Assembly: GCF_013167455.1 (NCBI RefSeq)
Contig: NZ_CP038328.1
DNA: 64,000 nucleotides
Source of the DNA: Escherichia coli O157:H7
GTDB taxonomy: Bacteria; Pseudomonadota; Gammaproteobacteria; Enterobacterales; Enterobacteriaceae
Strand: one strand, 5' to 3'
The position numbers are program-made. Positions 30,042 to 33,000 of this stretch are shown here, one piece after another. The stretch's first letter is position 1, and each line of letters starts with the position of its first letter.

Positions 30042-33000
30042 TCATACAAATAAGATGACGGCATTTTACTCGCACGTTCCATGAAAATCCTTTGCAAAGC
30101 GTAATGTTTCAAATGCACAAAACTTTTATACTCTAAGAAATCAGGATTGCACCAGTACAAGCAGCCTGATGTTTGACGAGTATTTAACTTGTTATGAATA
30201 ACATAGAATAGCAGCCATTCACTTTTTCTACGAATCAGGAACCCTCCATGAGTAAGTCTGAAAATCTTTACAGCGCAGCGCGCGAGCTGATCCCTGGCGG
30301 TGTGAACTCCCCTGTTCGCGCCTTTACTGGCGTGGGCGGCACTCCACTGTTTATCGAAAAAGCGGACGGCGCTTATCTGTACGATGTTGATGGCAAAGCC
30401 TATATCGATTATGTCGGTTCCTGGGGGCCGATGGTGCTGGGCCATAACCATCCGGCGATCCGCAATGCCGTGATTGAAGCCGCCGAGCGTGGTTTAAGCT
30501 TTGGTGCACCAACCGAAATGGAAGTGAAAATGGCGCAACTGGTGACCGAACTGGTCCCGACCATGGATATGGTGCGCATGGTGAACTCCGGCACTGAAGC
30601 GACAATGAGCGCCATCCGCCTGGCCCGTGGTTTTACCGGTCGCGACAAAATTATTAAATTTGAAGGTTGTTACCACGGTCACGCTGACTGCCTGCTGGTG
30701 AAAGCCGGCTCTGGCGCACTCACGTTAGGCCAGCCAAACTCGCCGGGCGTTCCGGCAGATTTCGCCAAACATACCTTAACCTGTACTTATAACGATCTGG
30801 CTTCTGTACGCGCCGCGTTTGAGCAATACCCGCAAGAGATTGCCTGTATTATCGTCGAGCCGGTGGCAGGCAATATGAACTGTGTTCCACCGCTGCCAGA
30901 CTTCCTGCCAGGTCTGCGCGCGCTGTGCGACGAATTTGGCGCGTTGCTGATCATCGATGAAGTAATGACCGGTTTCCGCGTAGCGCTAGCTGGCGCACAG
31001 GATTATTACGGTGTGGAACCGGATCTCACTTGCCTGGGCAAAATCATCGGCGGTGGAATGCCGGTAGGCGCATTCGGTGGTCGTCGTGATGTAATGGATG
31101 CGCTGGCCCCGACGGGTCCGGTCTATCAGGCGGGTACGCTTTCCGGTAACCCGATTGCGATGGCAGCCGGTTTCGCCTGTCTGAATGAAGTCGCGCAGCC
31201 GGGCGTTCACGAAACGCTGGATGAGCTGACAACACGTCTGGCAGAAGGTCTGCTGGAAGCGGCAGAAGAAGCCGGAATTCCGCTGGTGGTAAACCACGTT
31301 GGCGGCATGTTCGGTATTTTCTTTACCGACGCCGAGTCCGTGACGTGCTATCAGGATGTGATGGCCTGTGACGTCGAGCGTTTTAAGCGTTTCTTCCATA
31401 TGATGCTGGATGAAGGTGTTTACCTGGCACCGTCAGCGTTTGAAGCGGGCTTTATGTCTGTGGCGCACAGCATGGAAGATATCAATAACACCATCGATGC
31501 TGCACGTCGGGTGTTTGCGAAGTTGTGATGATTTTGCCTCGCCCACCGGGCGAGGCATTTTATTAACGGCTCTGCTTTCTCAACAAATAGATAAAATATG
31601 GCGCGCCGATAAAGGTCGACAGCAGCCCCGCCGGGATCTGGAACGGAAACAGCACCATCCGCCCACACCAGTCAGCGAACACCAGCAGTAAACCACCCAC
31701 CAGCGCCGAAATCACGATGTGCGGCATCGTCCGTCGAAAGCCCATCATCCGCGCGATATGCGGTGCCATTAAACCAACAAAACTCAACGGTCCAATGGTC
31801 ATCGTCGCGGTCGCCGTCAGGCAAGCCGCTAACAGCAGCAGCGCAATTCGCGTCGGCGTTAACGCCACCCCCACGGCCCGCGCGGTATCACCACCCAGCG
31901 GTAAAATGGTCAGCCAGCGGCGGCACAGCGGGGTAATCGCCAGCAAAATCACCATCACAATTCCGGTGCGCCAGACCTGCGCATCGGTGGCGTTGTAGGT
32001 CGAACCAGAGATCCAGGTCAGCACTTGCGCCATTCGCGGGTCACCACTCGCCTGCAACATCATTAAAAGCATGGTGAATGCGGTACTTAACGCCATCCCC
32101 GCCAGTAACATGCGGTGTGGGGAAAATCCACCGCGCCCGGCGGCGATCATAATAATCAACAGCGTCACCGCCGCACCGATACTTCCCGCGGGTAACAGCC
32201 AGCCAAAAGCATTACCCGGTACCAGAAACAGCATCAGTACCACGCCAAACGCCGCGCCAGAGCTAATCCCCAGCACTTCCGGGCTTGCCATCGGATTTCC
32301 GGTCAGCCGCTGAATAATACAGCCCGCCACCGCCAGCATGACGCCCGCAAACAGCGCCGCCATAATTCGCGGCCAGCGCCAGGGCATCAAATCCTCGAGC
32401 AACGCCCCGCTCGCCCACGTCCAGCCGTGCGCATCACGACCAAACGACAGCGCCACCACCACAGCCATCAACAGCAGCACGCCGCCCGCGAGGGCAAACG
32501 CCAGCACATGTTGGCGTTCAGCCGCGACACGATCGTTGACCTTCATATCCGGCGCGCTAATGCTGCGTAAACGCGGCAACAGCCACAGTAGCAGCGGCGC
32601 ACCGATCAACGCAGTGACCGAACCGGTGGACACTTCCATCCACACGCGAGTCAGCCAGAGGATGATTTGATCGGAAAGCCAGAGGATCAGCGCACCAATC
32701 AACGACGCCAGCATCAGTCGCGGCAGCAGACGCCGCGCCCCCAGCATTTTTGCCAGCAACGGCGCGAACAACCCGATAAAGCCGATAATCCCCACCGCGT
32801 TCACCAGCAGCGCACTGATGACAATAGCCAGCGACAGCGCCGCCAGACGCGCCAGCGACAAGGCTAGCCCGAGATTGCGCGCCACGCCATCATCAAGCCC
32901 CATCAGTGTTAACGGACGAAGTAGCAGCAACGTCAGCATCACACCGCCCAGCAACTGCGGCCATAAACGCTCAACACCGCCCCAGTCGGTTTGCGTCAGC

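What the first reader, a model, noticed from the sequence alone, without database searches (positions are those of the whole stretch)
31529..31562. hemL-fhuB convergent gap is only a single hairpin
The two convergent genes are separated by 34 bp, all of it one bidirectional terminator hairpin. From recalled K-12 coordinates the gap there is about 120 bp longer, again suggesting a strain-specific intergenic insertion in K-12 that is absent here.
Basis: inference. Interest (0 to 1): 0.25.

Follow-up and report, generated by a model that had tools for sequence, protein, structure and literature searches.

The report
Hairpin-or-REP spacer between hemL and fhuB
The 34-base gap between hemL and fhuB in this O157-type E. 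coli holds one strong hairpin, whereas K-12 and about a third of sequenced strains carry a common repeat element (REP/BIME) there instead, which is an ordinary, well-known kind of strain difference.

Summary
hemL (30248-31528, +) and fhuB (31563-33545, -) converge on a 34-bp spacer. It contains a single 10-bp GC-rich hairpin (31535-31557, -19.8 kcal/mol). K-12's spacer is 157 bp, 123 bp longer.

1. The hairpin looks like a terminator for hemL only: it is followed by UUUUAUU in hemL sense but AAAUCAUC in fhuB sense. The commonest E. coli variant (TTCAATT) fails the terminator rule on both strands.
2. K-12 does not have the hairpin plus an insertion. A BIME replaces the hairpin: a Y REP, an inverted Z1 REP and a partial Y REP.
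3. The long form is not K-12-specific. 1,701 of 5,426 complete E. coli genomes carry it, and 3,713 carry the hairpin. All four non-coli Escherichia lineages sampled have the same two REPs at this site.
4. The same hairpin stem occurs at this position in three Citrobacter species and in Intestinirhabdus.
5. Across 75 enterobacterial spacers, the one constant is a strong stem-loop. Its identity varies: a plain hairpin, a REP, or a boxC-like repeat.

This is a routine REP/BIME presence-or-absence polymorphism between two old alleles. Interest is low.

The parts
30248..31528 (+). hemL coding sequence (glutamate-1-semialdehyde 2,1-aminomutase), stop codon TGA at 31526-31528
   Evidence: ORF list; RefSeq annotation of 100%-identical O157:H7 DNA
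31529..31562 (.). 34-bp hemL-fhuB spacer, the 'hairpin allele'; single copy, present in about 68% of complete E. coli genomes
31535..31557 (.). GC-rich hairpin TGCCTCGCCC-ACC-GGGCGAGGCA (arms 31535-31544 and 31548-31557, loop 31545-31547), -19.8 kcal/mol on either strand. It starts 6 nt after the hemL stop codon and ends 5 nt before the fhuB stop codon.
   Evidence: stem conserved across genera with two compensated pairs
31558..31564 (+). T-tract TTTTATT following the stem in hemL sense; it runs into the complement of the fhuB stop codon (31563-31565). Positions 31560 and 31561 (T, T) are C and A in the commonest E. coli variant, which then fails the terminator rule.
31563..33545 (-). fhuB coding sequence (ferric hydroxamate ABC transporter permease), stop codon TAA on the - strand at 31565-31563
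   Evidence: ORF list; RefSeq annotation

Best explanation
The 34-bp spacer is one of two old, alternative fillings of the hemL-fhuB convergent junction. In this O157-type genome the filling is a unique, single-copy GC-rich stem-loop. On the hemL transcript it is followed by a U-rich tail (UUUUAUU) and most likely acts as a Rho-independent terminator. That would stop the more highly expressed hemL transcript from running antisense into fhuB. On the fhuB transcript the same stem forms but has no U-tract. There it more likely acts as a 3' stem-loop that blocks 3'-to-5' exonucleases and pauses polymerase, with release depending on Rho or on collision with converging polymerases. In K-12, in about 31% of complete E. 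coli genomes and in other Escherichia species, the hairpin is absent. A BIME (Y REP, inverted Z1 REP, partial Y REP) stands in its place and supplies palindromes that can do the same job. Shown: the anatomy, allele counts, REP identity, phylogenetic spread and sharp allele boundaries. Inferred: the termination and stabilisation roles, and functional equivalence of the two alleles.
For: Anatomy and strand asymmetry. K-12 spacer is 157 bp with no hairpin remnant. K-12 filler matches reference REPs: Y 32/35, Z1 34/36 on the opposite strand, partial Y 19/21 (reference sequences quoted in PMC11208160). The filler is dispersed at a median of 9 places per genome. The O157 spacer has no REP similarity and is single-copy in all 3,713 genomes that have it. 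Allele counts of 3,713 and 1,701 account for 5,414 of 5,415 full-length loci. All four non-coli Escherichia lineages carry the BIME with the same first two REPs. The same GCCTCGCC..GGCGAGGC stem is present in three Citrobacter species and Intestinirhabdus alba, and a compensated form in Kosakonia and Enterobacter sp. Bisph1: 98.4% of cells paired, 2 of 9 pairs changed on both sides. All 75 spacers of 600 bp or less hold a single hairpin of -15 kcal/mol or better, whatever its family. E. coli W (hairpin) and K-12 (BIME) differ at 1 of 640 nt in the adjacent fhuB sequence, so the alleles sit on almost the same background with sharp edges. Literature: REPs act as partial terminators and mRNA stabilisers, about 30% of E. 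coli convergent pairs hold a REP, and REP locations vary between strains (10.64898/2026.03.23.713779; PMC3333891). hemL is about ten times more expressed than fhuB in K-12 RNA-seq (baseMean 5263 against 538).
Against: No 3'-end mapping for this allele could be retrieved, because the EHEC Term-seq supplements are not held, so termination is not demonstrated in either direction. The commonest hairpin variant (TTCAATT, 1,731 exact junction matches) fails the T-tract rule on both strands. This suggests canonical intrinsic termination is not what selection maintains at this site. The stem starts only 6 nt after the hemL stop codon, so a terminating ribosome could interfere with folding (inference). 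The cross-genus hairpin set was picked by a sequence pattern, so its covariation statistics are biased by ascertainment. Harris et al. found no genome-wide effect of REPs on mRNA half-life, which weakens the 'stabiliser' role as a general claim.
Confidence: 0.75

Rival explanations
1. The hairpin is a genuine bidirectional Rho-independent terminator that ends both the hemL and the fhuB transcripts.
For: The stem is a perfect palindrome of equal strength on both strands (-19.8 kcal/mol). It fills the gap between two convergent genes. Bidirectional terminators are common between convergent E. coli genes (306 reported, cited). Twelve of 75 enterobacterial spacers at this site do pass the terminator rule on both strands.
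Against: In fhuB sense the stem is followed by AAAUCAUCAC, with 2 U in 8. The + strand 5' flank is GATTTT, not an A-tract. The scan accepts the + strand only. The most common allele variant passes on neither strand.
Confidence: 0.15
2. The difference is a recent, strain-specific insertion of extra DNA into K-12, with the 34-bp form being the undisturbed ancestral E. coli state.
For: K-12 is 123 bp longer. Clade A genomes carry more REPs than other E. coli (about 546 against about 395; PMC3333891). The hairpin allele is the majority form and occurs in O157:H7, O104:H4, O111, W, Nissle and O25b:H4 strains. The same hairpin stem is present in Citrobacter and Intestinirhabdus.
Against: The K-12 spacer lacks the hairpin entirely, so a simple insertion cannot produce it. 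The long allele is in 1,701 genomes, including ST648. E. albertii, E. whittamii and two further non-coli Escherichia lineages have the same Y and Z1 REPs at the same spacer coordinates.
Confidence: 0.03
3. The BIME is the ancestral state of the genus Escherichia. The hairpin allele entered E. coli secondarily, by short-tract recombination from another enterobacterial lineage that still had the hairpin, and then spread to most phylogroups.
For: All four non-coli Escherichia lineages sampled have the BIME and none has the hairpin. The hairpin stem is nearly identical in Intestinirhabdus alba and three Citrobacter species. Allele boundaries are sharp and lie on near-identical flanks (W against K-12: 1 difference in 640 nt), showing that the spacer moves between backgrounds by recombination.
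Against: The hairpin's immediate flanks within the spacer (TGATTT / TTTTA) differ from those in Citrobacter (TCCATTC / GTTTACA) and I. alba. No imported patch is visible in the adjacent coding sequence. E. fergusonii, E. marmotae and E. ruysiae were not recovered by name, so sampling of the genus is incomplete. Long-term retention of both alleles remains possible.
Confidence: 0.3

Closest known systems
REP/BIME (repetitive extragenic palindrome / bacterial interspersed mosaic element) presence-or-absence and copy-number polymorphism between E. coli strains
   Same: The K-12 allele is a typical BIME: Y and Z1 REPs in alternating orientation, located between convergent genes. Such elements are known to differ between strains at a given locus (PMC3333891; 10.64898/2026.03.23.713779). 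From my own knowledge, Bachellier et al. 1997 (Genetics 145:551) documented this across natural isolates.
   Different: The 'empty' state here is not empty. It holds a unique, single-copy hairpin that the BIME allele lacks, so the two states are alternative palindromes rather than element present or absent.
Rho-independent (intrinsic) terminators, including bidirectional terminators between convergent genes
   Same: A GC-rich 10-bp stem and 3-nt loop directly after a stop codon, followed in hemL sense by UUUUAUU.
   Different: There is no A-tract on the 5' side, so it lacks the symmetric A-tract/hairpin/T-tract design of bidirectional terminators. The U-tract is interrupted in most E. coli strains carrying this allele.
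IS621 (IS110 family, bridge-RNA recombinase) insertion into REP sequences
   Same: In strain N96 an IS621 sits in the Z1 REP of the long allele, exactly at ATCGGGC|CT|AC. [quoted passage not shown]
   Different: It concerns the long allele only. The O157 hairpin allele contains no IS621 target.

Membership tests
Rho-independent terminator (hemL sense, + strand) | GC-rich stem-loop immediately downstream of the gene | tested here: met
   10-bp stem with 8 G-C pairs and a 3-nt loop, -19.8 kcal/mol, 6 nt after the hemL stop codon
Rho-independent terminator (hemL sense, + strand) | U-rich tract directly 3' of the stem | tested here: met
   TTTTATTAAC, 6 T in the first 8, in the window. The commonest E. 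coli variant has TTCAATTAAC (4 in 8) and fails the rule.
Rho-independent terminator (hemL sense, + strand) | Mapped RNA 3' end at the U-tract, independent of Rho | not testable with these tools
   The EHEC Term-seq paper has no supplementary text held; K-12 data would concern the other allele.
Bidirectional intrinsic terminator | U-tract after the stem on both strands (A-tract 5' and T-tract 3' of the palindrome) | tested here: not met
   The - strand tail is AAATCATCAC (2 T in 8) and the + strand 5' flank is GATTTT. The scan finds no - strand site at the hairpin.
REP/BIME element (applied to the window's spacer) | Sequence similarity to Y, Z1 or Z2 REP consensus with the GTAG/CTAC motif | tested here: not met
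   No local alignment of score 14 or more to any of the three reference REPs on either strand
REP/BIME element (applied to the window's spacer) | Dispersed, multi-copy in the genome | tested here: not met
   Exactly one place per genome in all 3,713 genomes with a match, searched with 11-base words at E up to 10
REP/BIME element (applied to the K-12 spacer) | REP units matching consensus, in alternating orientation | tested here: met
   Y 32/35 (+, spacer 13-47), Z1 34/36 (-, spacer 63-98), partial Y 19/21 (+, spacer 109-129)
REP/BIME element (applied to the K-12 spacer) | Dispersed, multi-copy, extragenic | tested here: met
   Median 9 and up to 20 places per genome at megablast stringency; the other places lie under no annotated feature
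Known structured RNA family (Rfam) | Covariance-model match | tested here: not met
   No match at E up to 1 in window 31200-31900, both strands

The most novel reading that the evidence does not exclude
The hairpin is an ancient, structurally constrained 3' element of the hemL-fhuB junction. It has coexisted with a BIME as a very long-lived (possibly trans-species) polymorphism. Palindromic repeat families (REP, boxC-like) repeatedly displace the ancestral terminator hairpin precisely, rather than inserting beside it. That would imply a targeted replacement mechanism (for example TnpA-REP acting on hairpin DNA) and strict functional interchangeability.
Probability: 0.1. Interest if true: 0.4.

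Novelty: already known. Interest (0 to 1): 0.1.

Why it matters
It matters little in itself. Strain-to-strain differences in REP/BIME content of intergenic regions are textbook, and a hairpin after a gene is ordinary. Three modest points follow.
1. K-12 is not a safe reference for 'normal' intergenic lengths. Here the K-12 form is the minority allele within E. coli but the general state in the rest of the genus.
2. The two alleles lie on almost identical flanks. They form a ready-made natural pair for testing whether a BIME and a plain hairpin are interchangeable at the 3' ends of convergent genes, a question the recent REP literature leaves open.
3. Only the BIME allele offers an exact IS621 target, and one sequenced strain has it occupied.

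Tried and rejected
- REP annotation in the K-12 RefSeq record: none is shown at this locus. From memory, a REP-type repeat feature is annotated between yaaX and yaaA, and the tool's copy shows none there either. The absence is therefore uninformative, and I scored REP identity directly instead.
- Experimental 3' ends: the EHEC Term-seq paper (PMC7547250) has no supplementary text held. The REP preprint's held supplements mention hemL and fhuB only in differential-expression tables, not in its list of bidirectional terminators. No paper links hemL, fhuB and REP in a relevant way.
- Liang, Rudd and Deutscher 2015 (REPs within 15 nt of a stop codon reduce translation): I could not retrieve it, so that point rests on my own knowledge only.
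- The hairpin as a dispersed repeat or a boxC-like relic in E. coli: rejected, because it is single-copy.
- The hairpin as a known RNA family: rejected.
- REP consensus search in the 64-kb window: only two 2-mismatch matches, at chance level.
- My first T-tract scan extended stems maximally and so missed A/T-tract terminators such as L070. I redid it allowing shorter stems.
- My first REP regular expression double-counted palindromes and missed divergent REPs. I therefore give no exact REP or boxC-like tallies across genera.
- Two literature queries failed on syntax.

Full report
**What is in the window.** The ORF list places a 426-aa ORF at 30248..31528 (+) and a 660-aa ORF at 31563..33545 (-). 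An 834-bp stretch across their ends is 100% identical to E. coli O157:H7 chromosomes, where RefSeq annotates them as hemL and fhuB with the same spacing.

The gap reads TGATTT-TGCCTCGCCC-ACC-GGGCGAGGCA-TTTTA. It is a 10-bp stem with a 3-nt loop at 31535..31557, starting 6 nt after the hemL stop codon and ending 5 nt before the fhuB stop codon. The isolated hairpin folds at -19.8 kcal/mol on either strand. In a 61-nt context the fold is far better than shuffled sequence (z = -5.75 and -4.67). Rfam has no family here.

**Is it a bidirectional terminator?** The sequence says no. In hemL sense the stem is followed by TTTTATTAAC, and the terminator scan accepts it. In fhuB sense the same stem is followed by AAATCATCAC, and the scan finds nothing at the hairpin. 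A bidirectional terminator needs an A-tract before the stem and a T-tract after it. Here the + strand has T-rich sequence on both sides.

The hemL-sense T-tract is also a lineage variant. Other E. coli with the same spacer read TTCTATT or, most often, TTCAATT.

| 74-bp junction form | Genomes with an exact match (of 3,697 matched by the 74-bp junction query) |
|---|---|
| O157 form (TTTTATT) | 392 |
| Common form (TTCAATT) | 1,731 |

The TTCAATT form fails the terminator rule on both strands. So the stem is conserved but the U-tract is not.

**Comparison with K-12.** In MG1655 the gap is 157 bp (173445..173601), 123 bp longer. It is not the hairpin plus an insertion, though. Alignment shows identity up to one base past the hemL stop codon (TGA then T) and again from the base before the fhuB stop codon (A then TTA), with nothing shared between.

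Scored against the three reference REP sequences quoted in Durrant et al. 2024 (PMC11208160), the K-12 spacer contains:

| REP unit | Identity to reference | Strand | Spacer position |
|---|---|---|---|
| Y | 32/35 | + | 13-47 |
| Z1 | 34/36 | - | 63-98 |
| Partial Y | 19/21 | + | 109-129 |

This is a BIME with REPs in alternating orientation. It is dispersed, matching a median of 9 and up to 20 places per E. coli genome, outside annotated features. The O157 spacer has no REP similarity. It occurs exactly once in each of the 3,713 genomes that have it.

**Distribution within E. coli.** Counts are out of 5,426 complete genomes.

| Class | Genomes |
|---|---|
| Locus matched over at least 80% of the 834-bp query | 5,415 |
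| Hairpin spacer | 3,713 |
| Long (BIME) allele | 1,701 |

- Together the two alleles account for 5,414 of the 5,415 full-length loci, which leaves room for no more than one genome carrying both or an intermediate.
- The long allele has two subtypes that are 93% identical. The K-12 type accounts for about 1,575 genomes, estimated from the identity bands. A divergent type (roughly 125 genomes) is found in strains such as MS14385 and ST648.
- Hairpin carriers include O157:H7, O104:H4, O111:H11, W and Nissle.
- The collection is biased towards clinical and laboratory strains, so these are counts, not population frequencies.
- The long form is clearly not specific to K-12.

**Outgroups.** A scan of species-representative genomes with FhuB returned 80 loci. 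I extracted the spacer from 77 of them.

- **Non-coli Escherichia.** All four lineages have a BIME of 118-440 bp at this site: E. albertii, E. whittamii, Escherichia sp. MOD1-EC7003, and a strain labelled E. coli (SCPM-O-B-8794) whose flanks differ from E. coli by 6-8%. E. albertii has the Y REP (33/33) and the Z1 REP (33/36) at the same spacer coordinates as K-12. The other three show the same two units by eye. The BIME at this site therefore predates E. coli.
- **Other genera.** A 35-36-bp spacer with the same GCCTCGCC..GGCGAGGC stem occurs in three Citrobacter species and in Intestinirhabdus alba. Kosakonia pseudosacchari and Enterobacter sp. Bisph1 have GCCTCTCCC..GGGAGAGGC.
- **Covariation.** On an alignment of these seven sequences, 98.4% of stem cells pair. 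Six of nine pairs never vary and two are changed on both sides. This set was chosen by sequence pattern, so the statistics are biased by ascertainment. Even so, identical stems with unrelated loops and flanks, at about 15-20% coding divergence, argue for a conserved, structurally constrained element.

**The general rule at this junction.** Across the 75 spacers of 600 bp or less (74 species plus the window), every one contains a single hairpin of -15 kcal/mol or better. What supplies it varies: a plain hairpin, REPs, or boxC-like CCCTCTCCC..GGGAGAGGG repeats.

| Passes the hairpin-plus-T-tract rule | Spacers |
|---|---|
| hemL sense only | 18 |
| fhuB sense only | 2 |
| Both senses | 12 |
| Neither | 43 |

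The constant is a strong stem-loop, not a canonical terminator, and where there is a bias it favours hemL.

**How the alleles relate.** In the 640 nt of fhuB next to the spacer, E. coli W (hairpin) and K-12 (BIME) differ at one position. In the nearest 480 nt of hemL they differ at four. Two unrelated spacers therefore sit on nearly the same background, with edges at the stop codons.

The K-12 BIME is homologous to BIMEs in ST648 and in other species. The W hairpin has the same stem as the O157 hairpin. So neither allele arose on the spot. The spacer has been exchanged between backgrounds by homologous recombination through the flanking genes.

I cannot decide which state is ancestral for E. 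coli. The BIME is general in the rest of Escherichia, and the hairpin is shared with more distant genera. Either both persisted for a long time, or the hairpin was reintroduced into E. coli. I give the reintroduction reading about 0.3.

**Most likely mechanism.** *Shown:* the anatomy, strand asymmetry, REP identity, counts and phylogenetic spread.

*Inferred:* in O157 the hairpin plus UUUUAUU terminates hemL transcription intrinsically. hemL is about ten times more expressed than fhuB in K-12 RNA-seq, so stopping hemL read-through into antisense fhuB is the more pressing need. On fhuB mRNA the stem, lacking a U-tract, more likely serves as a 3' barrier to exonucleases and a pause site, with release by Rho or by collision with converging polymerases.

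The BIME allele would do the same jobs. REPs are reported to act as partly Rho-dependent terminators and mRNA stabilisers. About 30% of E. coli convergent pairs (207 of 704) hold one, and 78 REPs lie within the 306 reported bidirectional terminators (Harris et al. 2026 preprint; Ton-Hoang et al. 2012).

From my own knowledge (Liang, Rudd and Deutscher 2015; not retrievable here), stable REP structures within about 15 nt of a stop codon can hinder translation termination. Both alleles place a stable stem that close to the hemL stop codon: 6 nt for the hairpin and 12-13 nt for the Y REP.

**Verdict.** The 'bidirectional' label and the 'K-12-specific insertion' reading are not supported. The site shows a routine REP/BIME polymorphism, with the twist that the non-BIME allele carries its own conserved hairpin rather than being empty. 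This is already-known biology and of low interest.

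Noticed in passing
L008 (E. coli N96, NZ_CM169999.1) 2966-4245; corresponds to the window gap 31529-31562: An IS621 (IS110-family, bridge-RNA recombinase) is inserted in the Z1 REP of the long hemL-fhuB allele, exactly at ATCGGGC|CT|AC. 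Durrant et al. [quoted passage not shown] The K-12 spacer contains the same 11-mer; the O157 hairpin allele does not.
   Followed up: yes
window 31560-31561: The O157 lineage has T,T where most hairpin-allele E. coli have C,A (TTTTATT against TTCAATT; ZF34 has the intermediate TTCTATT). These two changes alone turn a hairpin that fails the terminator rule into one that passes it in hemL sense. The direction of change was not polarised.
   Followed up: partly
L009-L088, spacer between fhuB and hemL: The spacer turns over between palindrome families across Enterobacteriaceae: plain hairpins, REP pairs, boxC-like CCCTCTCCC..GGGAGAGGG..GGGGTGAGGG units, and true A-tract/T-tract bidirectional terminators (for example Enterobacter L070). 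E. whittamii has a 440-bp tandemly amplified BIME. Three Atlantibacter species have about 1.84 kb inserted between the genes, and L058 and L081 have about 535 bp.
   Followed up: partly
L001 and L090, hemL 480-640 nt upstream of its stop codon (window about 30889-31048): K-12 and E. coli W differ at 13 of 160 nt here but at only 4 of the next 480 nt. O157 against K-12 shows the same local cluster (12 of 160). This looks like a short recombination patch inside hemL.
   Followed up: no
L009 (NZ_JAATUR010000035.1, labelled Escherichia coli strain SCPM-O-B-8794): Its hemL and fhuB flanks differ from E. coli strains by 6-9%, about as much as E. albertii does. This species representative is probably not E. 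coli in the strict sense, despite its title.
   Followed up: no
E. coli genome collection: Two of the roughly 3,700 hairpin-allele matches lie on records labelled as plasmids, which probably reflects chromosomal fragments or mis-assigned replicons.
   Followed up: no
NC_000913.3 in the E. coli genome collection: No repeat feature is listed for K-12 at the hemL-fhuB gap. None is listed either for the yaaX-yaaA gap, where from memory the record annotates a REP-type repeat. 'No annotated feature' in intergenic DNA should not be read as absence of REPs.
   Followed up: yes
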